Below are positions 13,361 to 41,106 of a stretch of 64,000 bases of DNA, piece by piece (within the stretch, counting starts at the first letter, position 1; each line of letters opens with the position of its first letter). The notes beneath the pieces were generated by a model, which had not been told where the DNA came from, did no database searches, and saw only the letters and a program-made list of their open reading frames with translations. The stretch lies in IMG/VR virus record IMGVR_UViG_3300045988_119030, positions 21,411-85,410 of that record; one strand, 5' to 3'. Origin of the DNA: a virus. Made by a program: the position numbers and the translations under genes.

Positions 13361-16300
13361 TTGGCTGATAACGCACTAAATATTCAAGAAAGTTTATGTC
13401 AAGCAATGAGTATTATTGCTAATTCAAGTGTTGATAAAGTTAAATTTGATAGTACCATTGAATGTACTATTATTGATGCCACTGACAAACTTATTGGTAA
13501 GTATAAGGTTAAAAATGAATCTTATGCTGAATTTTATGCTTATTCCCAAATAACCACTTATAACAAAGGTGATAAAGTGTATGTATAGATCCCAAAAGGA
13601 GACTATAATAGCACTAAATTTATTGTCGGTAAAAAGACAGATAAAAATGAAGATAAACCATATAATTTTGTCAATCCTTTTAATACTTTTATTGATTTAA
13701 CTGGCAACTTTTTTATTGCCAAAGATAATAATAAAGAAGTTTGGAGTATCTTAGCTAATGGCAATGAAGAGGAAATTGAAATTACTCCAAATGGTGGAAT
13801 TACTTTTACTGATGAGCAATAGGGATTTACGCGGTTGGGGCTGCGTGCCGATTTCCGCGCCTGGCTTGAAACGCTCGGTGTAGTAAGTGGTAATTATGGA
13901 TTAAAATTAAATATATATGGTATTAAAGATGATACTGCGGACAATATTAAAAAAATAGAAAATAGTATTAAAAATAATGGAGAAATCCCTTTAATCGCAT
14001 CCATTGATTTAGATACTAATGACATGTATGGCAATCCCTATAATTTTGAAGGATATTATTCTCAAGAAATTGTTATTGATACTAGCGCAGTAGCTAAAAT
14101 ATATAATATAAAAATATTTTTATATCAAAAAGATAATTTTAAAGATAGTAATAATAATTTAATTAGTTATGCCAATGATTTCAATATGTCAATTCCGCCT
14201 AACAATATCTTTGTAAAAGATATATACATGGGACTGGGTATTTCCGCTGATGAGATAGAAAATGAATATGTAAGATTGTATTCATTAGATGGAAGCACTT
14301 ATGTAATTGATGATAAAGGTTAGATTGATTCTAAAACTATTAGATTGAAATGGGTCCATTTTGATGAAGATGGCAATAGAACTCAAATAACTGAACATAA
14401 AAAAGATGATGCTTTTGAAGTTCGTTGGTATAGGTATGAATTTGGAGCACCGTCTGCTGATGAATATTCTGGTGTCTATTGGACTGCGATTGAAGATAAT
14501 AAAAATAATTTTTATTATTAGCTAAAACCGCGCTCTAATAAAAATCAAGAATAGATTAAAGTAATTATCTTATATAATGGAAAAGTTTATAGAAGTAATA
14601 TAATTACTTTTAATAATGAAAAACAAGTTCCTAATGATGCGACTATTGATAGTTTAAATGCTTTGTCTATTCATTGTGAAGATTAGACTAATGGTAATTA
14701 TTTAATTTATAATTAGGCTAATTATTTGATGAATAGATCAGATGGGAAGATTAGCCGTAAATTAACTTTGCATTTTGATTCTAAGACTTATGTTATTAAT
14801 AATGGTATAATTGGTAAAAATTAGGATGGAGAAAGTAAATTAGTTGAAGCTTAGAGAGTAATTTGGCAAATTCCTATTAAAAATACTATGCTTAATTTTG
14901 GCGTTAAAGATGATGGAACTGATGCCACTTACAAAGAAATCATTATTGATTTAACTAATGAAAATGTTAATGTTTCTCCTGGAGAATTTTCTTTAAATTA
15001 TACTATTAATACTTTTTATACTAGTAATAAATCTAATAATACCGTAATTGCTAAAGTAGAAAAAGATGGTATTGTTTATACCGCCATTAAAGATTTCACT
15101 TTTGGATAGGTAGGAACTAATGGTACTGATTGTACTTTGGTAATTGATATGATAGCTCACGAGAATTTAAATAATAAAGTATTTACTGCTATAAAAAGTG
15201 GAGTAAGAGATAATTATACTTTTAGAGCTTAGCTATATGATAATGAAGGTAAAGAAATTACCAATTTTGAAAAATGTAATTGGACTTGGAGTTTTATGGC
15301 TGGATCAATGGTTAATAATGTTGATTTATAGAATACTAATAATTAGAATTGTGTGTTAAGAGTTAATACTACAAACTCTATAATGAGTAATTTAATTATT
15401 TTATAGGTAAAATTATCTGGTTGGGGAGATTATGATTTAACTGCTTACTATCCAGTTCCTATTACAACTTTAGATAATGCTTATATAAATGGTCCAACAG
15501 AGGTAATTTATTTAAGTAATGGTGAACCTACATTTTCTAAAGAACCTTATAAATTATTTATAAATGGTGAAGTAGATGAAATTGCGACTTGGAGTATTTA
15601 TCCCACTGGATCTACCGATAAATTTATTGGGTAGATTAAATATAATGATAAGAAAAAAGAATATAGATTAAGCCCTATGAACTTTTATGTTGATGGGGTA
15701 AGCACTTATGGAGTTCAAGGAAAATAGGGAAGTAATATAATTTGGAGTCAACCTATTTTAGTCATTTAGAATAAATATCCATCAGCGATGGTAAATAAAT
15801 GGGATGGATAGTTAAATATAGATAATGATAATAATTTTATCGGTGTCGCTTAGATTGCCGCTGGTAAAAAAGAAGATAATAATACATTTACTGGTGTTTT
15901 AATGGGATCTTTTGGTGATGATAAATCAGATAGTAGTCTTAGTAAAAATACTGGTATTTATGGTTATTATCAAGGTAAATAGGTTTATGCTTTAAAAGAT
16001 GATGGAACCGCTACATTTGGTAAATCTGGAAATGGTTAGATTGAAATTAAAGGCGATTCTGGAAAAATAAAATCCGCAGGATATGATAGTGGTAATGGTC
16101 TTTTAATTGATTTAAAAGAAAGTAAAATAGATGGTAAAAGTAACAGCTATAGTGCTTTTTTATTAAATAAATCTAGTCCATATTTAACAATTAAAGACCC
16201 TGTTAGTAATACTACTTTAATGAACGTAGGAGATAATAGTTATTATTTAAAGTCTAAAAATTATACTACAGATGGTACCGCTGGAATGCATATAAATTTA

Positions 16301-17059
16301 AATGATGGTTCTATTATAGCAAATACAGGAACATTTAAAGATGCTATTTATATTAATTATGCTGGTAGTACTGGTACTAAATATTGGAAAGCGGGAACTT
16401 ATACTTTAAATTATATATTAAATGAAATAGCTACGGCAGCCTATGATGCTAATTACGCAGTAGGACAATTAGAAGATTTAGTTAGTACATTAAATCGACA
16501 AATAGAACGTATTGATACTAATCAAACTAATTTAGGATATGTTGAAGATGTTTTATCAATCGGTACATTCAATTACAATCCTTATTTACATGCTTATGGA
16601 TGTTCATACCCAAGGGTTTATGTAACTACTACCGATGCTGCGTTATAGTATAATCCTAATATTTATGTTCAATGTGATTCTGATGGAGGGCACGTATTTG
16701 GGGGATTAAGAGTTGATGGAGAAAAAATTACTTCTGATAGACATTTTAAACAAAATATAGATTATCAATTAGTAAAATATAAAGATTTATTTTTTAATTT
16801 AAAACCCGCATCTTTTGAAATGAAGTCATCTCCAGAAAAAACAAAGTTAGGTTTTATTGCTTAGGATGTTCAAGAAGCGTTAGAAGCTAATAATTATAAT
16901 TTAACTTTAACTGAATATGATAAAATATTTGATGGTTTATGTTTAGATTATAATTCATTATTTGTATTGAATACTTATATGCTTTAGGAAGCATATAAAG
17001 AAATATTATTATTAAAATCTTAGATAAAAGATTTAAAGGAGAAAAAGGAAAATGAATGA
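13361..17059 (+). CDS. Tail fiber or spike protein of about 1232 aa with a C-terminal peptidase-S74-like intramolecular chaperone domain. Many in-frame TAG.
   Basis: RBS AGGAGG, TTG start at 13361. A frame-2 reading frame links ORFs 13361, 13835, 14888 and 16220 and ends at TGA 17057-17059. The C-terminus (..SDRHFKQNIDYQLVKYKDLFFNLKPASFEMK..KLGFIAQDVQEALE..) matches the autoproteolytic chaperone motif of endosialidase and tail-spike proteins. Confidence 0.7.
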
Positions 17060-25711: not shown

Positions 25712-27373
25712 TTGAACGTTAAATTTTTAAAAGGCTCTCAAGCCGAATTTGAAAAGGTGGCAGGTAGATATAAACCTGGTGCGTTTTATTTAGTAATTAA
25801 TGATAATAAATCCGCTGATGATTATAAAAAACCAAGTCGTCTTTATTATGGTGTAGATGAAAATAATTGTGTTCCTGTAAATCAAGGTATTAACGTAGTT
25901 GATACTACCGCAGATTTACCTCAAAGTTTTAATCAAAATACTGCTGGCGAATTTTATTATGTAAAAGATAAAAATATCTTATGTATTAATAATGGTAAAG
26001 GTTGGATTCAAACTAACACTGATACTATTTTAGATACTAGTAAAAAAAATAGTAATGTATCAGTAAATAGTAATCCTGAAAAACCTAATGGAGTTTCTAT
26101 AACTAATACTATTGCTGATAGTAGTGGTAATATTATTACTGAGACTTATGATATTATCGGTAGTGATTATATTCAAGTGGAAGCAATTCCTGCTGTTGGT
26201 GATAAAGGTGTAGACACTGTTAAACTTAGTTTAAAAGGAGTTAATTATCAATTAAGTTCTTCTTTAAATAAAAAAACTTTAAATGTTAAATTAAAGAATG
26301 CTGATACTGATGCAGGTAATTTTAATATTATTGCTGGTAGTAATGTTAATATTGCTGAAACTTCTACAGGAAATTATACTTTAAGCGTAAATAAAGCTGT
26401 TGATAGTATTGATGTAGTTAATCATGGTACTGGTACTGGTTTTACTGCTTCTATTAGTGGTCCTGGTGTTGAAGGAGCTGGTAATGGTACAACCTTATCT
26501 GCTGATATTGATCCAGAAATTGCTTTAGAAGGTAAAACTGGTAGTTACAAATTTAAAGATGGTGTTTTAACTCTTCCTGTTTATAGCAAGCAAGATATTG
26601 ATAATCAGCTTAGAACTATTAATGCTATGGTATTCCGCGGTGGATTCCAAGTTAAAGATGGAGCTATTGCCTATGATAATTCTGATATTACTGAAATTAC
26701 TGAAGGTAATACCTTTATTTATACTGGAGCCGAAGATACGCTTTGGAATGGTCATTATTTACGTCCCGGTGATTTAATTATTGCTTCTGGAAAAGAGGTT
26801 AATGGTGTTATTACTGGTACTATTAATTGGACTTATGTCCCTTCTGCTGATGATCCTGTTACTGAAATTGAAGGAGCCAATGATAAGAGCACTGCTGGTT
26901 TTATTATTAAACTTGGATCTACCAAAAAACTTTTAGATTATGCTCTTAATGGTGAAAGTGGTATTGTTCTAGAAACAGAAGTTTTAACAGATTCAAAAGG
27001 TCAACCTACTAATTCTAAAGTTGTTACTATTAAACATAGTAATACTTTAACTGTAAATACTCCAGTTTCTCAGCCCTATGCTGATGAACAAACTATTATT
27101 ATTAATGAGCCAACTGAAATTGATGCTCAAGGGCATGTAATTAAATCTACTCAAAAAACTTTTACAGTAAAAAATACTCATCAAGAGATTGCTAATGCAG
27201 ATTATACAGTAAATGGTACTGATACTTTAATTCCTAATCTTAAAGTTGCCGGTGCTGATCTTGAAGGTAAACCACTTGTTTTTGCTAGCAATAGTCTAAA
27301 GGTTAATGTTTCCGCGGCGACTACAACTGATAATGCTAAAGTTAATTTTGAGTTAGAGTGGGGAACATTCTAA
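25712..27373 (+). CDS. Fiber or receptor-binding-like protein of 553 aa with no TAG codons.
   Basis: RBS AAAGGAG, TTG start. Uninterrupted ORF. N-terminal motif (KFLKGSQAEFEKV..GAFYLV). Repetitive Thr/Asn/Gly-rich beta-rich sequence. Strong terminator downstream. Confidence 0.75.
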   Translation: MNVKFLKGSQAEFEKVAGRYKPGAFYLVINDNKSADDYKKPSRLYYGVDENNCVPVNQGINVVDTTADLPQSFNQNTAGEFYYVKDKNILCINNGKGWIQTNTDTILDTSKKNSNVSVNSNPEKPNGVSITNTIADSSGNIITETYDIIGSDYIQVEAIPAVGDKGVDTVKLSLKGVNYQLSSSLNKKTLNVKLKNADTDAGNFNIIAGSNVNIAETSTGNYTLSVNKAVDSIDVVNHGTGTGFTASISGPGVEGAGNGTTLSADIDPEIALEGKTGSYKFKDGVLTLPVYSKQDIDNQLRTINAMVFRGGFQVKDGAIAYDNSDITEITEGNTFIYTGAEDTLWNGHYLRPGDLIIASGKEVNGVITGTINWTYVPSADDPVTEIEGANDKSTAGFIIKLGSTKKLLDYALNGESGIVLETEVLTDSKGQPTNSKVVTIKHSNTLTVNTPVSQPYADEQTIIINEPTEIDAQGHVIKSTQKTFTVKNTHQEIANADYTVNGTDTLIPNLKVAGADLEGKPLVFASNSLKVNVSAATTTDNAKVNFELEWGTF

Positions 27374-27432
27374 GGGCAATACTATTTAATAATAAATATA
27401 ATTTTTTCTATTTTATATAGAAGAATGTTTTT

Positions 27433-27471
27433 ATGGGGAAAGATGAAATATTCTTTCCCCATATTTTTTTT
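27433..27471 (+). terminator. Rho-independent terminator.
   Basis: ATGGGGAAAGA..TCTTTCCCCAT hairpin followed by a T8 run. Confidence 0.8.
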
Positions 27472-27491
27472 AGGATAGAAAGGAGTAAATT

Positions 27492-30400
27492 ATGTCTAAG
27501 ATACGTTTTCGTCCTGTATAGGGCCCAGAAGAAAAAATAAAAGAATATCCTCAAAGCGATGGATATTTTTATGTGGCAACGGATACAGGCCGAGTTTATT
27601 TAGATACGGCAACTGAAAATAAAATGCCAATAGGGTCTAGTGGTGTTCAGGTAATTTACGGTACAGATAATACTGTGGAAATTGAATATGATGCGGATGA
27701 AAACCCAGTGGCTTATTTAATTCTTTTATCAAAATTATCTATAACAAATTGTCATATAGATGATTTAATTTTAAATTTAGACGGATGTTTTTATCGAATT
27801 TTAGGTTTTGCTTTAAATGAAAACCGCGAAGAATGTGCGAGATGTGAAAAATTAACTGTCGCCGGGGCAGGCGGTGGCGGAGAAGGAGACTCTGAACAAA
27901 AAGTTTTAGGAACTGTTTCTTTAACAAGAATTCCATTTGACAGCCCTGTTGATATCTTAAATGAAGAAAATGTTAAAGTAAAAGTTTTGGTTAAATGTAG
28001 AACTGTTGGTGGCGTTCCGCAATCTTCTTCTGTGCAAGGAATTATAACTATAAGCGAAATTAAAAGTGCTACAGAAAAAGAAATTTATTATACTTCTCCT
28101 CCTACTACTTATGAGCACAATATTCCGCAAGAAATTGATTTAACTAATATTTTAAGAAATTCATGTTCTAGTGAAATTAATTTTAGTATTTATTATAATC
28201 CTGATAAAGAAAATAATAGATTTTAGAAAAGCTCTGATACTATTAATATTAATAAACATCATCTTTCTTTTAGTTGGAAAGAAAGTAGTTTTAGTAATGA
28301 TAGTCCAGTTGACAATGGACAAATATCTGTTAGTTGGTTAATGTCTGAAGATATTGCTAGATCTGTTGAAGTTTATTTTGATGATTATTTAGTTTTAGAT
28401 AGAACTTATAGTGATACTGATTCTTCTTCTGAAGATTCTTTTGTTATTACTCCTGATACAAATATATTAGGGACTGATAAAGTTTCTACTTTAAAAAATT
28501 ATTTTACTCATGGTGAGCATATAATAAAAGCAAAGTTATATTTAATGAATAATTCTAAAAAAGGTGCAGGAACAGATTTTATTCAGAAAGAAATCGTTAT
28601 TCAAGAACCAGGTAATAAAATGCCTTTAATTTGGGTACAAGATTTTAAAACAGAATATTATACTTATGAGACAATAAGAATTCCTTTTAAAGTATTAGAT
28701 CCAAATAATAATGGAGCTTTTATAACTCTTTATAAAAATGGTGTTCAAGTAGGAACTAGAGAATTAGATAGTTCGCAAGTTAGAGAATGGCAATATTGGG
28801 AAATTACTAATTTAACCGTAGATGATAGTTCTTATTATACTATTAAAGTTGGTACTGATCCTTATTCTTATTCTCGTAATTTTAATTTTACAATTTTAAT
28901 TGACCCTTTAAGAGATATGAAGTTAGTAAAAAAAGATAATTTAAAGGTTAATTTTATAGCTACTGGTCGTTCTAATTCAGAAGGAAAATTAGGTCGTGAA
29001 ACTTATTTAATTAATAATAATAAATATGTAGAATTTAAAAATTTTAATTGGTATAATAATGGTTGGGTTTTTGATGAAAATAATACGACTTGTTTGCGAG
29101 TAAGCAATGGTGCGGAAGTGTCTATCCCAGTCGGAAAAATGGTTTTTAAAGATGGATCATCATCTGCTACTATTGAGGTTCAATTTAAAATAAAAAATCC
29201 TCAAAATTATGCTAAAGTTATAACTAAATATACTAGATATAAAGTAAGTAAAGACAATTGGGAGGATAATGATGCTTGGGATAAATTTAAAGCCCAAAAT
29301 AAATATCTTAATTACGATGAATTTTTAACTAAAGAATATTTACCGACAACCAATTATAGTTATGATGATTTAGAATATAATAAAATAGAACAAGATTTTA
29401 ATTTAAAGAATTTAGTTTGTGCGTATGGTAAATTAGGAAGCTCTGTATCTCCTGGTATTTATTTTAGTCCATAGGATGCTGTATTTACAGCTAATGGCGC
29501 TCAAGAAACAGTTTCAGTTGATTTTATTGAAAATGAAATGCTAAATCTTTCATTTGTTTATACTAAAAAGAAAAGTGATATAGAAGGTGGAAATTCTAAA
29601 TTATTAGAAATTTTTATGAATGGCGTTTTAACTAGCGTTGTACGTTGTAGTAGTGATGTTTGGAATATTGACTCTGATTTCATTAAATTTATGTCTAATA
29701 CTTGTGATATTGATATTTATAGTATTAGAGTTTATGATACAGATTTAACTATTCCTGAAATAGTTCAAAATTACGCTTTTGATAAGAGAAGTATAAAACA
29801 GTGGGACCAAAAAGATCTTTATGAAAACAATACGGTATTAAAAGATGATGTATTTTCTTATACTAAAATGAAAAAGTATAATGATAATCATCCGACTGAA
29901 CCTTTAATGCCCTATATTATTTTAAGGACTACTAAAAATAATAAAAATAATACGGATAATAGATTACCTTATTCTAAAGCAAAAGGAAGCTAGGAAGGAA
30001 CTTTAGAATTTGTTAACACTGCTTTAGACGCTGCTTACAATAGTGGTGAATTAGAAAAAGTTGCTATAAAAGAAGGATGGAAACCTGTAATCGAAAAAAA
30101 TGAAGAAACATAGGAAGAAGTAGTAAAATATACTGCGGTATAGAATTATTATATGCATCATTGTCCTAGTTTTATAACTGCTCTTAATGGATGTACTTTC
30201 CAAGTTCAAGGTACTTCTTCACAATTTTATCCTCGTCGTAATTATAAAGCTAAATGCAAAGAATCAATGCTTTTAAATAGAGGCCCATTTGCTGAAGACT
30301 ATAAAAAAGCAGGAGACTAGTATAATGAAGATATAACTAAACATCCTTGTTATTTAGAATGGTTTTATATGGATAATAAGACAGTCGGTACTACTAAATT

Positions 30401-33400
30401 TACTTTAAAAATAGATTTTATGGAATCTTCTGGAGATTATAATAGAGGATTTGCTAATTTAGTTAACGAGATTTATTCTAAACATCCAGTAGAAGACTAT
30501 AAAGATTCTTTTGATAATTATAATTTATATGGAAATTTAGAAGATTATCGCACTTCGGTAAAAGGATTCCCTGTTTTAGCTTTCCATTATATGTCCAACG
30601 ATGATAATACTTACTCTAAGGAAAATAGCAGTAATTGTATTTTTATTGGTAAATATAATATGCTATTAGATAAAGGGTCAGATGAATGCTATGGATTTAA
30701 GCCTAATAAAAAGATTTTACAAAATCAAATTATTGGAAGTCCTAAAATAAGAGATATAGCAGAATGCTGGGAATTTTAGAACAATTCAAGAACTTTTTGC
30801 TCTTTCCGCGACCCTTGGAATCGTTATAAATTATCATTTAGAAATCCTAATATGGTAATCCCTCCAGATGGAGATAATCCTGAATTAGTTAAAGGCGCTC
30901 CAAAAGTCGTTGATTCTTTTGAACCAAGATATAATCCAAATGATGATTTAATTGCTAAATAGTTATTTAATTTAAAAGACTGGGATGACCCAGATGGAAC
31001 ATAGACTAAGACTGTTGGAGAAGAATTAAAAAATGTAGCTCCTGATAGGCTTATTAAAAAAGAAATAATTGATGAAATTACTGGTGTAAAATCTATTAAA
31101 TGGATTATAAAAAATCCAGACGGAGAAGAAATAGAATTTAATGTTGGTAATAATACAAGTAAACAAGAATTGCTCTTAGCTTTAATGTCTAACTGGGAAG
31201 ATGCAGTTAGTTGGGTATGGAGTACTTGTTTAGATTGCGATATTGAATTTGATGATGGATAGAAATTAAAAATTCCATCTATGGGCATTTATACTAAAGT
31301 TGATGGATTAGCTGAAGCTATATATGTTCCTAATGTCTATTATGTTGAAGATGGAGTTAATGAAAATGGAAAAATTATTTATAAATTAGCTTCTGAAGAA
31401 TATAACTCTGAAACAAGATATTATAAGTAGATTAATGAAAATAATAGTTTAAAGTATGTAAGCATAAAACTTACAAATAATTCAGATAAAGTATATAAAG
31501 CAAATATTTATTATCTTTTAACTGATAGTAAAAATGAAATTTATGTATTAAGTTCTGATAAATTTAATTCTTCTTTAGATTATTATTCTTTTAATAAAAA
31601 TGAAGAAGGTATTGAGGAAAGATGGAAATTACCTAAACCAGTAATCTATGATTCTATTATTTATACTAAAGATAGTAAAGAATATCGTCAAGCTAAATTT
31701 AAAAATGAATTAAGTAATTTCTTTGATATTGAATATTTAGCTTCTTACCTTTTAATGACAGAAATTTTTGAATGTTATGATTCTCGTGGAAAAAATGCAA
31801 TGTTTGCTTCTTGGGGACCTCAAAAAGGTAATATTCAAAAATCTACTGGCAAACAACATTATATTTGGTATCCTATCTTTTATGATATTGATACTCAATT
31901 AGGTATTAATAATACTGGTATCCCATCTTTTGAATACTACATTGATGCTACTGAAGAAGGAAGTTTTTCAACTAATGATAGTGTTCTTTGGAATAATTTT
32001 TATACTTTCTTTAGAAGTAAGATGGTAGATAAATATAAGCAATTAATGGGAACTCAAAATAATTCTTATAGTCCAAACGATTCAAGAGTAAATAAAATTT
32101 TTACTAAAGGAGCAGGAAGCGGAGCTAAAAAGAGTGATATTGTAGATAAGTGGTATCGTACTGATCCATCAGTATTTCTTGATAGTTATGCAGTTTTAGG
32201 AGACCGACCAATTATTGCTTTAAGTTTAGACGAAGAATTTAAGTATATTATTCCAACAAACTCTAAAGCTGAAAATATGCCAGTGTTTGGTCGTTTAACT
32301 GATGGAGGTTCATATGAGGTTGAAGATGATAAATATTTTTATGCTTTGCAAGGAGATAGAAATCTTTATCGCGCACAATTTTTAGCTAATCGTCTTAATT
32401 ACATTGACTCTTGGTTGACTGTTGGCACTTATGCCAGAAATGGTGGAGGAAGCTATATTAGAAGTCGTATTTCCGCGAACAATCCTAAGAATACATCAGA
32501 TAAATGGATTGAAGGTACTAACACTCAAAATATGGAAGGATTAATTACAAATTCTCAGTATTGGAAAAATGGTGCTGAATTCAAAGAAAAAAATCATATG
32601 TTTGATGGTGAGTATTGGATCAACATGGAACCCGCGCGTAATGCCTATGTTACTATTGGTACAGATGGAGAGAATTTTCCTTCAAAAAAATATAATGGTT
32701 TAGAACCGGTTAAATATGTAGCTCCTGATATTAAAAAAGGAATTATGAGTAGCGGTAATTATAAAGAACAATTATATTATATTTATGGAATGGATCAAAT
32801 GAAATCTCTTGGTGATTTAAGTAAATTATATTTCCAAGAGTTTGCAGCTGAAGGAAAAATGGAGCGTTTAACTGATTTATTATTAGGATATGATGGAAAA
32901 GATGAAAGCGGTAATGAATATTTTAATAATGATGTAAATGACTGGTCTTTTTCAAAAGGTGGAATGCCTTTACTTAAAGAAATGAATCTTTGTAATATTA
33001 ACTTTAAAAAAGACTAGGGGGCATTAGATTTAACTAAAAGTGAAAAACTTGAAAACTTTAGAAACACTAAATCTAACATCCCGAGAGTTAATTTCGCTCC
33101 TGGAGTAGCTTTAAATACTTTATATTTAACCAATCGAACAAATTATTTAAGTTTAATAGAAGCTAATTTATTAACGAAATTAATAACTAATTATGTATAT
33201 CCTGAAAAAAATCCAATTACTGGAAAACTTGAGGTCTCAGATGAAAATCGTGGTTTATATATTCAAGGTCTTACTGATGCTGAAGAAGGAAAAGAAAAAA
33301 CTGAGATAAGAACTTTTGATATTCGAGGCGGTAATTTAGGTTATAATAGTTATGAATTGTTACGTAAATATATTTCAGCTAGTAAAAATAGTAAATTAGA

Positions 33401-35237
33401 TTTATCTAATTGTATTATTAATTTAAATAATGTTCAGTGGAGTCCATATAGGCTTCTGACTGATACTAAAACAACTCTCGACCCAGAAAGAAAATCTTAT
33501 TATAGAGATAATGGACATTTTTAGTTAACAGCTATTTCAAAAGATTAGGTTAATAAAATAACAAAATCTGATATTAAAAATAATTAGATTTATTATTTAG
33601 ATACAATAAATGGAGACAATAATAATCATAGTATAATAACTGATTATAATTTATTAATTGATATTTATAATAATTATAGGGGTCTTAATACTAATAAACC
33701 AGAAATATCTGGTGTTATGTATATAAAAAATAATAATTAGATTGATGAATCTATTATCTAGAATGAGTTATAGGACAAATACCCTGATTTAATAATTTTT
33801 GTAGAAAATGTTAAACAAGAATGTTCTGCCAAATTTATTTTAGAAAAAGAAGATATTGATGGAGTGTTAATTTAGGAGGTTCTAAAAACTTAGAAATTAC
33901 CCTTATCTAGCAGTAAATTCTTTGATGATCCAACAAATTCTTCTAGTGAAACTTATATTTCTTTTGGTAGCTTACAAGAAAAAATGCCAACTTATGATTT
34001 TAAAGGTTGGGAAGATGATACAGGAGAATTAGTAATTACTGTTGGAAAAAATGTAAATGAAGAAGATGTTGTTTTAAAAAGCGATTGGGATTCTTTGTCT
34101 TTACAATCTAATAAAATAGATTATGTTTTTAAAGCAAGATTTGAGCGCAAATCTTACACGATTACTTTCGTTAATGGTGACCGCGTTATTAATGATTTAA
34201 CTGTAAAGAAAGTATTTAATTATGGTGAAAGAATTACTGTTCCAAAAGAATTCTATTATTTTAATAATACAGAAGTATCTGATTTACCAGAAGGAGAAGA
34301 CTCATTAGAATGGACTTGGAGATAGACGGGATGGGCGGATAAAGATGGAGTTAAAATTGATTTAACTAAACAATTAGCCTATGCTAACCGCGAATTCTAC
34401 GCTGTTGGAGAGCCGATTAGTGTTTATGATAATATTTTAACTAATGATTCTACTCATAAATATTATGATATTATAAATTCTGATGGAGAGTTATCATTTG
34501 TAATGACTGACTTAGCTAAGAATTTAAAAGGCAAAGTTACTTTACCTACAACTTATAATGGTTAGCCAATTACAAGAATTAAATATAGTCAAGTTAACCC
34601 ATCAGCAGCAGTTGGTATTCAAGTAAATCCTAATATCACTGCGATATTTTTTGCTCCAAAAGATAGCAATAAAATTTCTGTAATAGATGATTATGCTTTT
34701 ATTTTAGATAGTGGGTTAGAATATTTCCAATTTAGTGATTGTTTAAAGAAAATTGGTACTAAAGCATTTTATCAATGTCCTTTAAGTCATAATAACATAA
34801 TTCCTTATTCTTCTTCTACTGAAGGTTTGACTTTTGGAGCTCAAGCATTTTATCAAAGCAAGATGGGTTCTTATTCTCCTTATAATTTAATTATAGAGGG
34901 ATGCAAAGACGGTATTCTTAATTTTGATATAAATGCATTTTCTGGTCAGACAATTTTAAATATGTCTGGTAATTAGTTTAAAGGTTATACTGGCGCTATT
35001 CAAGTATAGATTGGTACTAATAAACACCCAATTAAACAAATTACAGCAGATAGCTCTGGCAATATTTTTACTCCTCGTCAAACTGGTATGCCTACAGTGG
35101 CTAATGGATACACAGGTCGTTTTAGATATTATTATGTTGCTAGTTATGGTGAAAGTATTAAAAATATTTTACACAATATTTATGAAGCAATGATATCTAA
35201 TAGAGCGAATTTTGAAGAAGAGCCTATTGTAAAGTGA
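27492..35237 (+). CDS. Giant tail fiber or adhesin-like protein, about 2581 aa, about 40 in-frame TAG.
   Basis: RBS AAAGGAG, ATG at 27492. Standard-code ORFs 27573, 28341, 29538, 30369, 31755 and 33984 are all in frame 0. Triplet-by-triplet reading shows only TAG between them and a first TGA at 35235-35237. The N-terminus carries the shared fiber motif (..DGYFYVATDTGRVYLDT..). A Gly linker follows (AGAGGGGEGD). Confidence 0.6.
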
Positions 35238-35246
35238 GGATAAATT

Positions 35247-35447
35247 ATGGAAAAAGAAATTGTTTATAGATATATGGGTTCTAACGGTATTATTGAATCT
35301 TCTATATAGTTGACAGGAATTCCTGCGACTACTTTGTATAGATTAATAGCAGATTACAATAAGAAATTAACGAGAGATGGAAAAGAATTTTTTTCCATCT
35401 CTCCTTTAGTCCCTGAAAGTGAATTAAAAGAATGGTATGAGGTTTAA
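35247..35447 (+). CDS. Small hypothetical protein, 66 aa, 1 TAG.
   Basis: RBS GAGGA, ATG at 35247, TAA at 35445-35447. A terminator follows. Confidence 0.4.
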
Positions 35448-35482
35448 ATAGGCCAGAATACATTGATTTAAATATAAAAAAA

Positions 35483-35526
35483 ATTAGGTTAAATAGGAAA
35501 AGAAACTATTTAACCTAATTTTTTTA
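35483..35526 (+). terminator. Rho-independent terminator.
   Basis: ATTAGGTTAAATAG..CTATTTAACCTAAT hairpin followed by a T7 run. Confidence 0.65.
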
Positions 35527-35543
35527 GAAAGGAAGAGATAGAT

Positions 35544-37223
35544 TTGATAGTTAAAAATGATAGTGTTATCGAACAAGCTAAATGGGAAGAACTTCAAAAG
35601 AAAATCAATACTTTAGCTAAAGATAATAAAATAAAAAACGTTAATGGAAAAATCGTTGAAATAAAATCTATTGAAGACTATTATAGTAACATCACTGGTA
35701 TTGTTCAAATGAAGAAACTAGATCCATCTGTTCTTCGCATACCTTTAGATGAACCTATTATAAATATAAATGCTGATACTCGTCAAATTGAATTAACTAA
35801 AGAATTTGGAAAAACTCAATTACTTACTGTTGAAAATGATCATTTGGCAGAAACAATTTATTTTCAAATTGATAGATATTTTGATTTACAAGATTTAGCA
35901 GCTGATGATATTAAAATTTATATTTAGTATTATTTAAACGATCAAATTCAAGGTTATTCTGAAGCTATTTGCCCCGATATTGGTACTGCTGGAAAATTAA
36001 TTTTTGGTTGGCAAATTAGTGATGAAGTAACTAGTGAATCTGGTACTTTATAGTTTTCTATTATTTTCTTTAAAAAGAATCCAAAAGATAATAATAATTT
36101 AATGTATGTGTTTAATACATTACCTGCGCAAATGGTTATTAATAAAACTTTAGACATTGATGAAGATTTAGTTACCGCGCAACCTGTTGATTATTTAACG
36201 GGGTATTTAGAAAGTTTAATCGACTCAAAGAAATCCGCAGGTTTTGGAGTTCCTGATAATGTGGCTTTCTTGACAAGCATTTTAAATAACAAATCAGTTT
36301 ATTTAACTGGTGATAAATTATATGCTTTAGCTTATAATGATACTTTAAATAATCCAGATAATACTACTATTGAGTATAAATGGATTTGTAATTATAGAGG
36401 AACTAATACTGAATTAAAAAATGGTATTGGTTATGAATACAAAAAAATTGTTGATGATAATAGCATCTTTAGTGGAGATATGGCTTATAATGAAAAATTG
36501 ACCTATTTTACTAAAAATGGAGATACTTATATTAATAGTAGTAGTGATATTAATCTTGAAAATTATGTTGCTAAAAAGAATGACCTTTATTTAAAAGTTC
36601 AATATTGTGAAGTTGATGGATGCGGAAGTTATAGTGTGACAGCATTTGGCGCAACCGCGAATCAAGTGAGTAAAGAAGTTAAATGGGCTGGATTAGCTAT
36701 TTCTGTTGAAGGAATTAGTGAAGATTTTAGAATTGTTCTTGATCCTTCCCCTGATAATGGATGTTATTATGGTTCTTCTAATACTATTACTGCTGTTGGA
36801 TAGAATGATGAAGGCGTTCAGTGTACTTATCTTTGGAAAAAGAATGGCTCTGATTTTAGCACTGAAAAAACTGTAACTTTAACTAAAGAGGATAATTATA
36901 CTTTATCAGTTCATGGTTATAAAAATAAAGATAATATAGATTATCCTACAATTAGTTTTACTAATTATTTTGACCCAACTAATTTAGTTCCTGTTATTAA
37001 AGAAGTTTCAATTGAAAATGGAAAATATATTGTTAAACTCGAAAATACTAGTGAGTTAGGCAATGGTGTTTATGAATATCAATGGAAAAATGCGAATGGT
37101 CTTACTCAAAAAACAACTTCTGAAAATTCAACAGAAGTAGATGAAAATATTACTCAAGTAGCTGTAATTATCTAGAAAGGTGAAAGAAAATCAAAACCAG
37201 GAACCTTTAAGATTGAGGGGTAA
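35544..37223 (+). CDS. Structural protein, 559 aa. Its N-terminal domain is paralogous to the next gene; the C-terminus is Ig-like and repetitive.
   Basis: TTG start after GGAAG. Frame 0 links ORFs 35544 and 36102 through TAG. TAA at 37221-37223. Shares the DHLAETIYFQIDRYFD...NTLPA domain with the 37229 gene. Confidence 0.55.
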
Positions 37224-37228
37224 GATAA

Positions 37229-37848
37229 ATGATAACTAATCCAACTGATTATTATAGTGTTTTACATCAAATACAAGATGAAAACTTTCCAATTAAGTAT
37301 CCTGCTCTTCCAGCCCCAGAAGATGAAAAGTTAGTTTAGATAGATTTAAACTCAAGAACTATTAGTAATGAAAATAGTTATATTACAGTTGAAGGCGATC
37401 ACGCTGCTGAAATTATTTATTTTGAAATAGATAGATATTTTGATACTATGGATTTAACTAATATGATGTGTATTATTTAGTATATTAATGCTGATAATGA
37501 AAAACGCATTTATCCCGTTCCATATTATGATACTTTAACTCACAAAGATAAAATTATTTTTCCTTGGGTTTTAAATTATAGTGCTACTAAAAAATCTGGT
37601 GCTTTAAATTATATGATAACTTTTTATAAAATAGAAAAAGATTCTAATAATTTACTATATAATTTAAATACATTACCAGCAAGTCTTTAGGTTTATTCTA
37701 AACTTAATTTAGATTCTATCGTAAAAGAAGAAGATTATTATGTAATTGATGATAGCCAAGTAGTACAACAAATTTGGGAACGCTTAGCACGTTTAGAAGG
37801 ATTTGTTGGCGGTAATGGGTTGGATGTTTATTGGATTGTTCTCGAATA
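37229..37848 (+). CDS. Structural protein, 206 aa, paralogous to the N-terminal domain of the 35544 gene.
   Basis: ATG at 37229, 3 TAG, TAA at 37846-37848. Motif DHAAEIIYFEIDRYFD..NLLYNLNTLPA. Confidence 0.55.
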
Positions 37849-37857
37849 AATAAACTA

Positions 37858-37900
37858 AATGGTATAGAATTATTAATTTAATTCTATACCATTAATTTAT
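37858..37900 (+). terminator. Candidate hairpin terminator (AT-rich stem, weak T-tract).
   Basis: AATGGTATAGAATT..AATTCTATACCATT inverted repeat. Confidence 0.35.
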
Positions 37901-37922
37901 AGAAAGGAGTTATTGAAGATCG

Positions 37923-38948
37923 ATGGCTCTATTTAAAATTTTAAAAGGTGATTCAGATAGATTAGTCACCTATGATGCGAAAGCGGTTAATGGAAAAATA
38001 CCCTTTCCATCTTTAGATTCTGGAAAAACTTTATTTACAACAGTAGAAAGCACTCCTATTACAGAGGGCTATGCTTATTTTACAGAAGATACTCATAAAT
38101 TTTATATTGACACCGCGGACAAAAGATTAAATCTATATACCGATCATGCGGATTATGCTACCTATGATGAAAATGGTCGTAATTTAGCAGAATTGTCAGA
38201 AGTATCTTATGAAAATATTGATGATAATGGAAGTAAAATTGGTGCGATAAATATCAATGGAATTGAGTATAATGTTACTTGTCCTGCGAATGTAGTAAGT
38301 AAACCTGTAAATAAATATGTATTTACCGCGAAAGCAAATTAGAATACATTTACTATTCCTTTTGATTTTGATGATAGCAGTGCTTTAACTTTATATTATA
38401 ATGGTATTATGCTAAAAGAAAATGATCATTACACTGTTGAGGGAAAAGTTATTACTTTAAATGGGTGGACTAGTGAAGCTGATGATTATCTTACTGTAAT
38501 GGGTATTGAGGGTGCGGCCGCGATTAATGTTGACGAAAAAGTGGCTTAGATTCAAGAAGCAATAGATAACGCCGAAGTGACTATTAATAATAAAGTTACT
38601 GATGCTATTAAATCTATTGATGATAAACTAGCAACCGTTCCTGATGATGTAACACAAGCAGTTTATAAAAATAAATCCAACATAATGACCGCGGATGGTA
38701 GAATTACTATGGATAATAATTATGTTCCTACTGCTGATATGGAATTAGCTACTAAAAAATACGTTGATAATGCCACTCCTCCTACAGTTGGAACTACCAC
38801 TGATTATTCTATTTATATTGGATCTACTAAACCTGCTTCTGGAACTGCTCCTTTAGTGTGGATAGATACAACTGCTAAAACTGGCACTTTTAAATATAGA
38901 ACTTCTACCACAGGTACTTGGACACCTGTCCCCGTGGCTTGGATTTGA
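37923..38948 (+). CDS. Fiber-like protein, 341 aa, with the shared N-terminal motif. 2 TAG.
   Basis: RBS AAAGGAG. N-terminus FKILKGDSDRLVTYDA..GYAYFTEDTHKFYIDT. Frame 0 links ORFs 37923 and 38577. TGA at 38946-38948. Confidence 0.6.
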
Positions 38949-38982
38949 TATAAATTTATTGTAAGAAAAAGGAGATAATATT

Positions 38983-39390
38983 ATGGATCAAAATTTAATT
39001 AATCAATTGTTTCAAGTGTGTTTGATTCCTATGCTTGGTGCTTTAACTACTTTTATAGTTATTTGGATTAAAGCAAAAAGTGCAGAATTACAAAAGAAAA
39101 CTAATAATGATATTTTAAATAAATATGTGCAAATGGCTACTGACACAATTACTAATTGTGTTATTGCCACCAATCAAACTTATGTAAATTCTCTTAAAGA
39201 ACAAGGTAAGTTTGATGAAGCTGCTCAAAAAGAAGCATTTTAGAGAACTTATCAAGCAGTATTGCTCATTTTAAGTGATGATGCTAAAGAGTATTTGAAT
39301 AATGCTTTTGGTGATTTGAATAAATATTTACAAGAGAAGATCGAGTCTACAGTAAATAATTATCGTACTCCAAGTGATGATTTAAAATAA
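38983..39390 (+). CDS. Small membrane protein, 135 aa, with one N-terminal TM helix. Holin-like candidate. 1 TAG.
   Basis: RBS AGGAGA. TM segment LFQVCLIPMLGALTTFIVIWI. It is the last gene of the late operon before a bidirectional terminator. Confidence 0.4.
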
Positions 39391-39397
39391 TAAAAAT

Positions 39398-39441
39398 AAG
39401 GGAGACATTCTTAACTGAATGTCTCCCTTATTTTTTTTTTA
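39398..39441. terminator. Bidirectional rho-independent terminator between the late operon and the convergent regulator gene.
   Basis: AAGGGAGACATTC..GAATGTCTCCCTT hairpin, with an A-tract upstream and a T10 run downstream. Confidence 0.8.
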
Positions 39442-40155
39442 TCTAAATGGATTTTTCCATCGTCGATTAATTTCTTCATAGCCTTTTTTAGGAAAGTATA
39501 AAACTTCACCATTTTTAAAAGTTAAATTATCTTTATTCATTATTTTAATTTGATTTAAATTAATAATTAAACTTGGCGGAATAAAGACAAAATCTGGATG
39601 ATAAACTAAAGTTCCTATATAATTTTCAAAAGAAGTTTTTAAAGTTTTATTATTTAGAATTTCATTCTCTAAATGACAACACAAATTTCGTTTTTGGATA
39701 TCAGCATATAATACTTTACCCAAATCAATTTTTACTTCTCCGTTAGGAGTGTCTAAATATTTATATTCACGTCTTTTTTCTTCTCTAACTTCATGTAAAA
39801 TAGAAAAAATTTTTTCTTTATTAGCAGGTTTTTTGACGAAGTTAAATGCCTTTACTTCATAAGAAGCTACTCCATAATTTATTTGAGAGGAAACAAAAAT
39901 TATTTTTCCAATATACCCATTTGTTCTTAAGAGATGAGCTATTTCAATACCATCCATTTTTTTGAATGTAATCCCTAAAAAGATTGCATCATAATCAATA
40001 TTAGAATCAATTAATTTTCCAGGATCAGTAAATTTATATACATATCCCGGCAAATTAAATTCTTTAAAATACTGATTTATTATTTCTTCTAATGAGTCAT
40101 TTTGCTAATCGCTATTGTCGCAAACACCTACAATAAAAATTTTAATCACCTTCAT
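39439..40155 (-). CDS. LytTR-family DNA-binding regulator with a degenerate (pseudo) receiver domain, about 238 aa, 1 in-frame TAG.
   Basis: ATG at 40155. The listed ORF 39439-40053 is extended upstream through TAG (MKVIKIFIVGVCDNSD[TAG]QNDSLEE..). The REC-like region lacks the phospho-acceptor Asp (FLGI rather than FLDI) and lacks the acidic pocket. The C-terminal LytTR fold carries ..LCCHLENEILNNKTLKTSFENYIGTLVYHPDFVFIPPSLIINLNQIKIMNKDNLTF. Confidence 0.7.
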
Positions 40156-40199
40156 TTTGTTTATTTTAGAAAAAATTTTTCTATCTCTATATTTTCTCT

Positions 40200-40320
40200 A
40201 TATTATAATTATACAAAAATTTTTAAATATTGTAAAATAAAAAACTATAAAGTGTCAAATTTATTTAATTTTAAGTAAGTGAAATTTTTATTCAAAAAGT
40301 GTCAGTAATTATAATATATT
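40200..40320. promoter_or_regulatory. Divergent promoter region containing a direct repeat AAAGTGTCA (40249-40257 and 40296-40304) and a related AAGTGAAAT (40277).
   Basis: Leftward sigma70-like elements: TTGACA (reverse complement of 40253-40258) with TACAAT 18 nt downstream, plus an extended -10 TGTATAAT (reverse complement of 40208-40215). Rightward TATAAT at 40310-40315. The repeats are candidate LytTR operator half-sites. Confidence 0.35.
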
Positions 40321-40398
40321 TACACAAAATAAAAGTCATATAATAATGAAAGGAAAAGATAAAACCTTTCATTATTATATTTCTCCGAAGGTAATAAC

Positions 40399-40845
40399 AT
40401 GAATACTTATGGTTATCCATAGCAGTAGTATCCAATAGGTAATAATAGACCTATTTATGGAACAACTGCTACGCCTGTGATTCAAAACAATACTACATAG
40501 CGAATTAGACCCGTTGCTTCTTTAGAAGAGGTTCGAGCTATGAATATAGATTTTGATGGTTCAGTTTTTTATTTTCCTGACTATGCTAATCGTAGAATTT
40601 ATACAAAACAAATAAATATGGATGGAACAGCTTCTATTAATATGTATGAATTAAAAGAAATCCCAAATTCTTCTTAGCCTAATAATGACTATATAACACG
40701 AGAAGAGTTTAATACTACCTTAACTTCTATTAAAGAAGTATTTGCATAGATCATGGGATCCAATAATGCGGTTGCGCCGTCTTAGGAATCGGGTTAGCCA
40801 GCTCAATAGCAACCAACAGAGAGCAAACCGCAGTTTAATTTTTAA
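40399..40845 (+). CDS. Hypothetical Gln/Pro/Asn-rich protein, 148 aa, about 8 TAG.
   Basis: ATG at 40399. A single frame runs to TAA 40843-40845. Low-complexity termini (YGYPQQQYP.., ..SGQPAQQQPTESKPQ). Confidence 0.4.
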
Positions 40846-40857
40846 GGAGAGTTTCAA

Positions 40858-41106
40858 ATGACACAATCAATGAATCCAATGCAAATTATTGCTATGATTA
40901 AAAACGGTCAAAATCCATAGCAATTAGTTTTATCTATGCTTGAAAATCAAATGGGCGGAACGCCAATGGGCAATAATTTATTACAAATGGCACGGAACGG
41001 TCAATCTGATGACATTGAAAAATTTGCTCGTAATTTGTTTGAATCAAGAGGTTTGAATTTCGATAAAGAATTTAATAGTTTTAAGTCCCAAATGGGGTTT
41101 AAATAA
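40858..41106 (+). CDS. Hypothetical small protein, 82 aa, 1 TAG.
   Basis: RBS AAGGAGAG, ATG at 40858, TAA at 41104-41106. Confidence 0.45.

What the first reader, a model, noticed from the sequence alone, without database searches (positions are those of the whole stretch)
27492..35237. Single roughly 2581-aa fiber or adhesin gene hidden behind six standard-code fragments
ORFs 27573, 28341, 29538, 30369, 31755 and 33984 share frame 0. Reading the intervening sequence shows only TAG codons and a first TGA at 35235. With a strong RBS at 27480 this is one 7.7-kb gene. Its N-terminus carries the fiber motif shared by three other genes here. A poly-Gly linker follows, and the long repetitive Asn/Tyr/Lys-rich body is typical of phage receptor-binding or depolymerase-like fibers. 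A fiber of this size is unusual and is probably the primary host-range determinant.
Basis: seen in the sequence. Interest (0 to 1): 0.65.

Follow-up and report, generated by a model that had tools for sequence, protein, structure and literature searches.

The report
Giant amber-recoded phage tail fibre gene
Six apparent gene fragments are one 2,581-residue phage tail-fibre-like protein in which TAG encodes glutamine; it belongs to a widespread, barely studied family of giant gut-phage fibres built around a conserved CotH kinase-like core.

Summary
Frame 27492-35237 holds 25 TAG codons and no TAA or TGA before the TGA at 35235. Only the ATG at 27492 has a Shine-Dalgarno site. Full-length homologues of 2,200-2,800 aa are common in metagenomes. 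TAG codons interchange with CAA/CAG in a 70%-identical homologue (p = 2e-20), so TAG encodes Gln.

The fibre/adhesin reading is broadly supported, but several details are wrong. The body is not repetitive and no depolymerase fold was found. The N-terminal motif is shared significantly with one other window gene, not three. The size is normal for this family.

The domain order is:
- a beta N-domain, then a Gly linker
- three Ig-like domains
- a lectin-like jelly roll
- an LRR-like stretch and Listeria-Bacteroides-type repeats
- a BspA-type LRR tip

The CotH catalytic-type motifs are invariant in 211 relatives and form the most conserved block. The last ~480 residues have been swapped between lineages, as expected for a receptor-binding tip.

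The closest described relative is the ~2,245-aa target of the diversity-generating retroelement (DGR) in the Bacteroides Hankyphage. This is a new variant of a noted but unstudied family, of moderate interest.

The parts
27478..27485 (+). Shine-Dalgarno site GAAAGGAG, 6 nt upstream of the start codon
   Evidence: None of the six internal standard-code ORF starts has such a site.
27492..35237 (+). Single coding sequence of 2,581 codons plus a TGA stop, with 25 in-frame TAG codons read as Gln
27492..27857 (+). N-terminal all-beta domain (aa 1-122), the presumed virion-attachment domain. It contains the motif GYFYVATDTGRVYLDT.
   Evidence: AF2 model (pLDDT about 60-89). A profile of this domain also matches gene 37923-38948 at E 9e-7. 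No specific structural match was found. The attachment role is inferred.
27858..27893 (+). Gly-rich flexible linker (aa 123-134)
   Evidence: Sequence AGAGGGGEG. pLDDT is below 50 for residues 123-134.
27900..28901 (+). Three tandem Ig/FnIII/PKD-like beta-sandwich domains (aa ~137-470)
28941..29801 (+). Concanavalin-A/LamG-like lectin jelly-roll domain (aa ~484-770)
29889..32441 (+). CotH kinase-fold domain (aa ~800-1650) with a variable beta-rich insertion at aa ~1187-1393
31779..31796 (+). DSRGKN motif (D1430, K1434, N1435), a catalytic-loop-like motif
   Evidence: Invariant in 211 of 211 aligned family members. It lies in the most conserved 100-residue block. Its equivalence to CotH D228 is inferred from the motif and from the Pfam-aligned region.
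31884..31892 (+). D-I-D of the YDIDT motif (D1465, D1467), a metal-binding-Asp-like motif
   Evidence: Invariant in 211 of 211 aligned members. Its equivalence to CotH D251 is inferred.
32769..33461 (+). LRR-like region (aa ~1760-1990); this assignment is tentative
   Evidence: The sequence has a repeat pattern (LxxLxL...N). There are weak matches of the family profile to internalins and Pfam LRR_4/LRR_8 hits in homologues. This region was not modelled.
33792..35234 (+). Exchangeable C-terminal module (aa 2101-2581), consisting of Listeria-Bacteroides-type repeats followed by a BspA-type LRR tip
   Evidence: Mosaic identity. P0013 and P0016 are 90-96% identical to the window protein here but about 65% elsewhere. 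P0011 and P0012 are about 88% identical elsewhere but 40-49% here.
33909..34406 (+). Two Listeria-Bacteroides (Flg_new)-like repeats, with motifs YDFKGW and WRQTGW (aa ~2140-2305)
   Evidence: Pfam Flg_new hits in 3 of 20 homologues. This protein's own hit is only E 0.63. The family profile weakly matches the InlB B-repeat. The assignment is tentative.
34509..35081 (+). BspA-type leucine-rich repeat domain (aa ~2340-2530), the presumed ligand-binding tip
   Evidence: The family profile matches PDB 4gt6 and 4fs7 cell-surface LRR proteins at E 1.5e-27. Pfam LRR_5 scores 25.5 bits in this protein (cut-off 27.7) and hits 15 of 20 homologues.
35247..35447 (+). Conserved 66-aa gene immediately downstream (contains one TAG), a possible fibre assembly factor
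   Evidence: The same small gene follows the giant gene in L001, L002 and L003. Its function is inferred from position only, and it has no Pfam hit.

Best explanation
Positions 27492-35237 are one late structural gene of a large TAG-recoded (code 15, TAG = Gln) gut phage. Its genome is about 190 kb, judging from homologue contigs. The gene encodes a 2,581-aa modular tail-fibre/adhesin protein.

The inferred mechanism is as follows:
- The N-terminal beta domain docks the protein on the tail or baseplate. One other fibre-like gene in the window carries the same domain.
- A Gly hinge and three Ig-like domains project the rest of the protein outward.
- The lectin-like jelly roll, the CotH-fold domain and the LRR-type modules form the cell-contacting part.
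- The C-terminal Listeria-Bacteroides-repeat plus BspA-LRR module acts as the specificity-determining tip and is exchanged by recombination between phage lineages.

The CotH-fold core keeps invariant kinase-type D-x3-K-N and Y-D-x-D motifs, so it probably still binds nucleotide and metal and is catalytically active. Its substrate and its role in infection are unknown.

Because the first TAG is codon 10, no useful product can be made until the phage's amber-suppression machinery is active. This ties synthesis of the protein to the late phase of infection.

What is shown: the single ORF, TAG = Gln, the domain folds, the invariant motifs, the mosaic C-terminus, and the position in the tail module. 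What is inferred: virion location, the docking role of the N-domain, the receptor-binding role of the tip, and kinase activity.
For: Single gene:
- There are 25 TAG and no TAA or TGA in 2,581 codons.
- Only the start at 27492 has a Shine-Dalgarno site.
- 58 full-length homologues of 2,200-2,900 aa were found at 28-97% identity.
- Homologue DNA in L001, L002 and L003 also carries only TAG in frame (33, 5 and 24 codons).
- Nine TAGs fall inside confidently modelled secondary-structure elements of the LamG/CotH model.

TAG = Gln:
- 18 of 39 non-TAG partners of TAG codons are CAA/CAG, against a 2.1% background (p = 2e-20).
- At universally conserved Gln columns, TAG in one sequence aligns with CAA in the others.
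- TAG use is window-wide, at 13.8 per 1,000 codons in the structural block and 5.2 elsewhere. This matches published code-15 phages (bioRxiv 10.1101/2021.08.26.457843; PMC9523058).

Fibre/adhesin role:
- The gene lies in the tail module.
- It is homologous to the Hankyphage DGR target, which follows the minor tail protein, and to the post-TMP/Dit giant gene of phage NatCom_3357. PMC12135933 calls the Hankyphage gene a tail fiber.
- It contains Ig-like, lectin-like and LRR modules.
- Its C-terminus is mosaic.

CotH core:
- Pfam CotH hits in homologues over the aligned region, and a sub-threshold hit in this protein.
- D1430, K1434, N1435, D1465 and D1467 are invariant in 211 of 211 relatives.
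Against: - No suppressor tRNA(CUA) was found in the 64-kb window or in three 27-kb homologue loci, so the decoding machinery has not been seen.
- There is no direct evidence that the protein is in the virion.
- No trimeric fibre-shaft fold (coiled coil or triple beta-helix) was detected.
- The N-domain has no match to a known fibre-attachment domain.
- Homology to the Hankyphage fibre covers only the CotH C-lobe (23% identity, E 9e-9).
- The CotH, LRR_5 and Flg_new Pfam scores of this protein itself are all below the curated cut-offs.
- A family profile of the CotH C-lobe does not reach CotH in PDB by sequence.
- Residues 1680-2581 were not modelled.
- A kinase on an extracellular fibre has no obvious ATP supply.
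Confidence: 0.72

Rival explanations
1. The standard code applies, and the region holds six or more separate small genes or a decayed pseudogene interrupted by nonsense mutations.
For: Under table 11 the frame breaks into ORFs of 60-420 aa. No suppressor tRNA was found in the window.
Against: - All 25 interruptions are TAG and none is TAA or TGA, whereas the other frames hold 129-403 TAA+TGA.
- Standard-code ORFs cover only 4,443 of 7,746 nt, and none has a Shine-Dalgarno site.
- Homologues down to about 30% identity keep one uninterrupted 2,200-2,800-aa frame.
- TAG interchanges with CAA/CAG.
- Folded domains run straight across the TAG sites.
- TAG is in frame in most structural genes of the window.
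Confidence: 0.01
2. It is one TAG-recoded giant virion protein, but not the host-receptor-binding fibre. Either it is an accessory adhesin that tethers virions to mucus or other gut glycans through its Ig-like and lectin domains, or it is a delivered or virion-associated enzyme whose main job is CotH-type phosphorylation.
For: - The CotH catalytic-type core is the most conserved block, and the specificity-type domains are the least conserved.
- Three Ig-like domains and a sialidase-CBM40-like / neurotoxin-Hc-like lectin domain are present.
- Another fibre/spike gene with a Peptidase_S74 chaperone, and further fibre-like genes, lie in the same module.
- No fibre-shaft fold was detected.
Against: - The Hankyphage homologue is the target of DGR diversification at its C-terminal tip, which is the signature of a ligand-binding tropism determinant (PMC6199706; PMC12135933).
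- The C-terminal module here has been swapped between lineages in the way receptor-binding tips are.
- The gene sits at the position usually held by the receptor-binding protein, after the TMP, Dit and baseplate genes, in three unrelated phage backgrounds.
Confidence: 0.2
3. TAG is read as a sense codon but encodes an amino acid other than glutamine.
For: The suppressor tRNA was not seen. About half of the aligned partners of TAG are not Gln codons.
Against: Gln codons are the dominant partner (46% against a 2.1% background, p = 2e-20). The remaining partners (K, E, S, T) mirror the substitution spectrum of CAA/CAG codons themselves. Metaproteomics has shown TAG to Gln in other gut phages (PMC9523058).
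Confidence: 0.03

Closest known systems
Hankyphage (Bacteroides phage p00) DGR target protein, the 'putative tail fiber' (~2,245 aa, record positions 31489-38226), together with the 'category f1' ~2,000-aa DGR targets carrying CotH + Laminin_G_3 motifs (PMC5758913, PMC6199706, PMC12135933, PMC8008677)
   Same: It is a giant single-polypeptide protein encoded right after the tail/minor-tail genes. It has a LamG-like plus CotH-like core, and tblastn matches aa 1392-1665 at E 9e-9. Its C-terminal end is the variable, presumed ligand-binding part.
   Different: The Hankyphage tip is a C-type-lectin fold diversified by a retroelement. Here the tip is a Listeria-Bacteroides-repeat plus BspA-LRR module, and no VR/TR repeat lies nearby. 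Variation arises by module exchange instead. Sequence identity is only about 23% and is confined to the CotH C-lobe. Hankyphage is a 43-kb temperate standard-code phage, whereas this is a large TAG-recoded phage.
Bacillus CotH spore-coat protein kinase (PDB 5JDA; Pfam PF08757)
   Different: Identity is 14%. The protein's own Pfam score is below threshold, and a C-lobe profile does not reach CotH in PDB by sequence. It carries a ~200-aa beta insertion and is embedded in a 2,581-aa phage structural protein rather than being a ~360-aa free enzyme. Activity and substrate are unknown.
BspA-like / LRR_5 cell-surface proteins of gut and oral bacteria (e.g. PDB 4gt6, 4fs7)
   Same: The C-terminal ~200 aa match by family profile at E 1.5e-27.
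   Different: Those are bacterial surface proteins. Here the module is the tip of a phage protein, and this protein's own Pfam score is just under the cut-off (25.5 against 27.7 bits).
Code-15 (TAG = Gln) recoded gut phages: crAss-like, Lak, and the 'gemstone' clades (bioRxiv 10.1101/2021.08.26.457843; PMC9523058)
   Same: In-frame TAG is enriched in the structural and late genes. Replication genes such as Pol III alpha are TAG-free.
   Different: The clade of this phage was not determined. The suppressor tRNA and any release-factor genes lie outside the window.

Membership tests
Genetic code 15 (TAG = Gln) phage gene | Many in-frame TAG codons but no in-frame TAA or TGA within a long conserved ORF | tested here: met
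   25 TAG, no TAA, and only the terminal TGA. The same pattern holds in three homologue loci.
Genetic code 15 (TAG = Gln) phage gene | TAG positions align with Gln codons in relatives | tested here: met
   18 of 39 non-TAG partners are CAA/CAG, against a 2.1% background (p = 2e-20). At conserved Gln columns, TAG aligns with CAA.
Genetic code 15 (TAG = Gln) phage gene | A phage-encoded suppressor tRNA with a CUA anticodon | tested here: inconclusive
   ARAGORN found no tRNA in the 64-kb window or in loci L001-L003. Only about a third of a ~190-kb genome was visible.
CotH kinase family (PF08757) | Pfam CotH score above the gathering threshold | tested here: not met
   Segment aa 1385-1660 scores 17.8 bits, E 0.0026, against a cut-off of 23.8. 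Homologues P0076, P0078 and P0081 do pass (31.8-47.3 bits) over the aligned region.
CotH kinase family (PF08757) | The CotH atypical kinase fold | tested here: met
CotH kinase family (PF08757) | Catalytic Asp and metal-binding Asp (B. subtilis D228 and D251; PMC7821199) are conserved | tested here: inconclusive
   D1430-x3-K-N1435 and Y-D1465-x-D1467 are invariant in 211 of 211 relatives and lie in the Pfam-CotH-aligned segment. A residue-by-residue superposition on 5JDA could not be obtained with these tools.
CotH kinase family (PF08757) | Protein kinase activity | not testable with these tools
   This needs a biochemical assay.
Phage tail fibre / receptor-binding protein | Encoded in the tail module, downstream of the tape-measure and baseplate genes | tested here: met
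   A TMP-like gene lies at 4321-13245, followed by tail genes (PHROG tail hits), then this gene. Homologues in p00 and NatCom_3357 hold the same relative position.
Phage tail fibre / receptor-binding protein | A variable or exchangeable distal (C-terminal) specificity domain | tested here: met
   The mosaic identity profile shows the last ~480 aa swapped independently of the body.
Phage tail fibre / receptor-binding protein | An N-terminal attachment domain shared with other fibres of the same phage | tested here: inconclusive
   The domain is shared with gene 37923-38948 (E 9e-7) but not significantly with any other gene. It has no structural match to a known anchor domain.
Phage tail fibre / receptor-binding protein | Presence in the virion and a role in adsorption | not testable with these tools
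   This needs virion proteomics and adsorption assays.
Tailspike depolymerase (beta-helix, lyase or hydrolase) | A right-handed beta-helix or a recognisable glycanase/lyase domain | tested here: not met
   No such hit appeared in Pfam, in the PDB profile search, or in fold searches covering aa 1-1679. Residues 1680-2581 were searched by sequence only.
DGR target protein | A VR/TR repeat pair and a nearby reverse transcriptase | tested here: not met
   No direct repeat involving the gene was found in 27000-41000. A reverse transcriptase was not searched for across the whole window.
BspA-type LRR (PF13306) | An LRR_5 repeat domain | tested here: inconclusive
   This protein scores 25.5 bits against a cut-off of 27.7. 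15 of 20 homologues hit LRR_5 at E<=0.01 (best 1.2e-63), and the family profile matches 4gt6 at E 1.5e-27.

The most novel reading that the evidence does not exclude
The invariant CotH core is an active, virion-borne protein kinase or nucleotide-dependent enzyme displayed on a tail fibre. On this reading, a whole class of giant gut-phage fibres (at least 900 clusters at 50% identity) uses enzymatic modification of a host-surface or phage substrate as an obligatory step in adsorption or infection. The interchangeable tips (BspA-LRR here, DGR-diversified C-type lectin in Hankyphage) would then only target the enzyme.
Probability: 0.25. Interest if true: 0.75.

Novelty: new variant of a known kind. 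Interest (0 to 1): 0.45.

Why it matters
Standard-code annotation shreds this gene into fragments, so the protein and its whole family go unannotated in metagenomes. Read correctly, it links a large TAG-recoded phage to the same giant LamG-CotH fibre scaffold that Hankyphage diversifies with a retroelement. One conserved scaffold therefore carries different specificity tips across very different gut phages. The scaffold's most conserved element is a kinase-fold domain with intact catalytic-type motifs, and its function in a tail protein is unknown. The literature notes this domain in phages only in passing, as 'currently unstudied' (PMC8008677). This gives a concrete, testable question about how abundant gut phages recognise or modify their hosts.

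Tried and rejected
- Megablast of 24 kb against 50,697 phage records found nothing.
- phmmer of the whole protein against PDB sequences found nothing.
- phmmer of the CotH-positive homologue P0076 against PDB found nothing relevant.
- A family profile of the CotH C-lobe against PDB found nothing even at E<=10. The CotH link therefore rests on fold plus Pfam hits, not on direct sequence similarity to the solved CotH.
- PHROGs gave only two families of unknown function.
Both models were therefore made from the 97%-identical metagenomic homologue P0001 (37 differences in aa 480-1679; 5 in aa 1-485).
- The first attempt with 68 full-length rows was too large to submit.
- No tRNA was found in the window or in the homologue loci.
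- The genome-contig scan gave only two MAG contigs, from Mollicutes and Clostridium bins of 164 and 175 kb. These are probably binned phage genomes and so are not usable as host evidence.
- The Nguyen et al. 2016 CotH paper (PMC4922149) is not held, so the residue roles come from PMC7821199 and from my own knowledge of kinase motifs.
- I considered and rejected depolymerase, DGR target, pseudogene and tandem-repeat protein.
Full report
**Observation**

The frame that starts at 27492 runs for 7,746 nt. It holds 25 TAG codons, no TAA, and one TGA at 35235. The other five frames of the same stretch hold 129-403 TAA+TGA codons, so an open frame of this length is far beyond chance in DNA of 28% GC.

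The ATG at 27492 is the first possible start, because TAA lies at 27486-27488. It sits 6 nt after GAAAGGAG. None of the internal ATG or GTG codons that begin the standard-code fragments has a Shine-Dalgarno site, and those fragments cover only 4,443 of the 7,746 nt.

The whole window behaves the same way. Read with TAG as a sense codon, it resolves into a compact gene map that includes a 2,974-aa tape-measure-like gene with 56 TAGs. TAG is 2.7-fold denser in the structural block (13.8 per 1,000 codons) than in the rest of the window (5.2). The Pol III alpha, dUTPase, guanylate kinase and lysozyme genes are TAG-free. This is the pattern published for code-15 gut phages (bioRxiv 10.1101/2021.08.26.457843; PMC9523058).

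**One gene, with TAG read as glutamine**

A search of 5.8 billion predicted proteins returned 82 relatives. 58 of them are full-length proteins of 2,200-2,900 aa at 28-97% identity, found on contigs of up to 196 kb. I fetched the DNA of three homologues, at 70%, 35% and 32% identity. All three carry only TAG in frame (33, 5 and 24 codons) and end in TGA or TAA.

I then compared the window gene with its 70%-identical relative. Of the 39 TAG codons whose aligned partner is not TAG, 18 pair with CAA or CAG. The background frequency of those codons is 2.1%, giving a binomial p of 2e-20. The remaining partners (K, E, S, T) follow the same substitution spectrum as CAA/CAG codons themselves. At columns where Gln is conserved in all four sequences, TAG in one sequence aligns with CAA in the others.

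Nine of the TAG codons fall inside confidently predicted strands and helices of the LamG and CotH domains. The rival reading of separate genes or a pseudogene is therefore effectively excluded.

I did not find the suppressor tRNA. There is no tRNA in the window or in the three homologue loci, but only about a third of the genome was visible.

**What the protein is**

The gene lies in a tail module. A virion structural protein and the tape measure lie upstream. Between them and this gene are several large proteins with PHROG tail hits, and a 1,217-aa protein with a C-terminal Peptidase_S74 intramolecular chaperone domain.

- a beta N-domain (aa 1-122)
- a disordered Gly linker (aa 123-134)

The second model covers residues 480-1679 (pLDDT 81.8, pTM 0.81) and contains two units:

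Sequence evidence agrees with the CotH fold assignment:
- The protein's own C-lobe gives a sub-threshold Pfam CotH hit (E 0.0026).
- Its homologues P0076, P0078 and P0081 pass the CotH threshold, and P0076 passes the Laminin_G_3 threshold, in exactly the regions that align with this protein.
- A ~200-aa beta-rich insertion (aa ~1187-1393) interrupts the CotH fold. This is the most variable part of the core.

Downstream of the CotH domain, the evidence comes from sequence only, because residues 1680-2581 were not modelled:
- There is an LRR-like stretch.
- Two repeats carry the YDFKGW-type signature of Listeria-Bacteroides repeats. Pfam Flg_new hits 3 of 20 homologues, but only weakly here.
- The C-terminal domain is a BspA-type LRR. 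The family profile matches the 4gt6 and 4fs7 cell-surface LRR proteins at E 1.5e-27, and Pfam LRR_5 hits 15 of 20 homologues. This protein's own score is 25.5 bits against a cut-off of 27.7.

Tandem Repeats Finder found no real repeats in the gene. No beta-helix or lyase signal appeared in any search.

**Two comparative results bear on function**

First, the identity profile along the protein is mosaic. Relatives P0013 and P0016 are about 65% identical to the window protein over the body but 90-96% identical over the last ~480 residues. Relatives P0011 and P0012 are about 88% identical over the body but only 40-49% identical at the end. The C-terminal repeat-plus-LRR module has therefore moved between lineages independently of the rest of the protein. 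This is the classic behaviour of a receptor-binding tip.

Second, the most conserved 100-residue block in every comparison is aa 1401-1500, the CotH catalytic region. D1430, K1434, N1435, D1465 and D1467 are invariant in all 211 family members that could be aligned. These residues form D-x3-K-N and Y-D-x-D motifs. They resemble the kinase catalytic loop and the metal-binding Asp, whose B. subtilis CotH counterparts D228 and D251 are essential for activity (PMC7821199). The residue equivalence is my inference from the motifs and from the Pfam-aligned segment. A residue-level superposition was not available.

**Relation to what is known**

A tblastn search against phage records gave only distant hits. 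The informative ones were:
- The 1,673-aa hypothetical protein of phage NatCom_3357 (Ca. Heliusvirales), which follows the TMP and Dit genes.
- The 6.7-kb gene of Bacteroides Hankyphage p00, which follows the minor tail protein and carries the DGR variable repeat at its 3' end.

The Hankyphage gene is called the tail fiber, and its diversification has been shown experimentally (PMC12135933; PMC6199706). A DGR survey had already noted ~2,000-aa phage target proteins with weak CotH and Laminin_G_3 motifs (PMC5758913). [quoted passage not shown]

The window protein has the same LamG-CotH scaffold but a different tip: BspA-type LRR instead of a DGR-diversified C-type lectin. No VR/TR repeat is present near the gene.

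The family is large. The CotH region alone finds 910 clusters at 50% identity with E<=1e-3 and 154 with E<=1e-30, and most of those proteins are 2,200-2,800 aa long. The size is therefore normal for this family, not unusual.

The following are right or well supported: the single gene, the TAG readthrough, the strong RBS, the Gly linker, the general fibre/adhesin nature, and a probable role in host range.

The following are not supported:
- A repetitive body.
- A depolymerase-like nature.
- Unusual size.
- Being 'the primary' host-range determinant. At least one other fibre/spike gene is present.
- An N-terminal motif shared with three other genes. A profile of the N-domain finds only gene 37923-38948 (E 9e-7). 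The 25712 gene resembles it by eye but scores E 2.9.

**Mechanism**

My best account, at about 0.7 confidence, is a late-expressed tail fibre. The first TAG is codon 10, so the product depends on amber suppression from the outset. I infer the following steps:
- The N-domain docks the protein on the tail.
- The Gly hinge and the Ig-like domains extend the rest of the protein away from the tail.
- The lectin-like, CotH and LRR modules engage the cell surface.
- The exchangeable C-terminal LRR module sets specificity.

What the conserved kinase-fold core does is the open question. The main rival (about 0.2) is that the protein is an accessory adhesin or a virion-borne enzyme rather than the host-receptor binder.

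**Novelty and interest**

TAG recoding and giant CotH-LamG phage proteins have both been reported before. This protein is an unannotated variant with a new tip, in a recoded large phage. I rate it as a new variant of a known but essentially unstudied kind, with moderate interest (0.45). The interest would be higher if the CotH core proves to be an active fibre-borne kinase.

Noticed in passing
window 4321-13245 (+): A 2,974-aa tape-measure-like gene with 56 in-frame TAG codons. Under the standard code it would be shredded into dozens of fragments. It has long coiled-coil-type sequence and a hydrophobic central segment.
   Followed up: partly
window 13406-17059 (+): A 1,217-aa protein with 25 TAGs and a C-terminal Peptidase_S74 intramolecular chaperone domain (Pfam E 3.4e-8, above the cut-off). 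It is a second fibre/spike-type protein in the same tail module.
   Followed up: partly
window 35247-35447 (+); L001 17714-17914; L002 17651-17851; L003 17389-17577: A conserved 62-66-aa gene immediately follows the giant gene in all four loci. It has no Pfam hit and may be a fibre assembly factor. An inverted repeat ending in a T-run, read by eye at about 35480-35530 and not scanned, follows it and looks like an intrinsic terminator.
   Followed up: partly
window 35709-37223 and 37229-37849 (+): Two adjacent paralogous genes share a conserved N-terminal region, including a 62-nt direct repeat at 79% identity (35824-35885 and 37383-37444). The first probably starts further upstream, at the TTG at 35544, which has a purine-rich RBS-like stretch just upstream.
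   Followed up: no
window 37923-38948 (+): A 341-aa gene whose residues 41-120 match the N-terminal-domain profile of the giant fibre family (E 9e-7). It is probably a second, short fibre that uses the same attachment domain.
   Followed up: partly
window 39439-63716, mostly the minus strand: A replication and nucleotide-metabolism block holding Pol III alpha (50097-54110), guanylate kinase, dUTPase and a phage tail lysozyme domain protein (57281-58120). It has few or no TAG codons. This fits early genes being readable in the standard code. Gene 40399-40845 is an exception, with 8 TAGs in 148 codons.
   Followed up: partly
L006 (CAMELE010000001.1, 163,874 bp) and L007 (JALFQD010000409.1, 174,861 bp): The only relatives found in GTDB species genomes lie on 164-175-kb contigs of MAGs labelled Mollicutes and Clostridium. 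These contigs are probably whole phage genomes binned with low-GC bacteria. They hint at, but do not establish, a Bacillota host.
   Followed up: no
window 39439-40155 (-); L001 21911-22627: The homologous locus annotates the corresponding 238-aa gene with a Response_reg (receiver domain) Pfam hit. That is an unusual gene to find next to a phage tail module.
   Followed up: no
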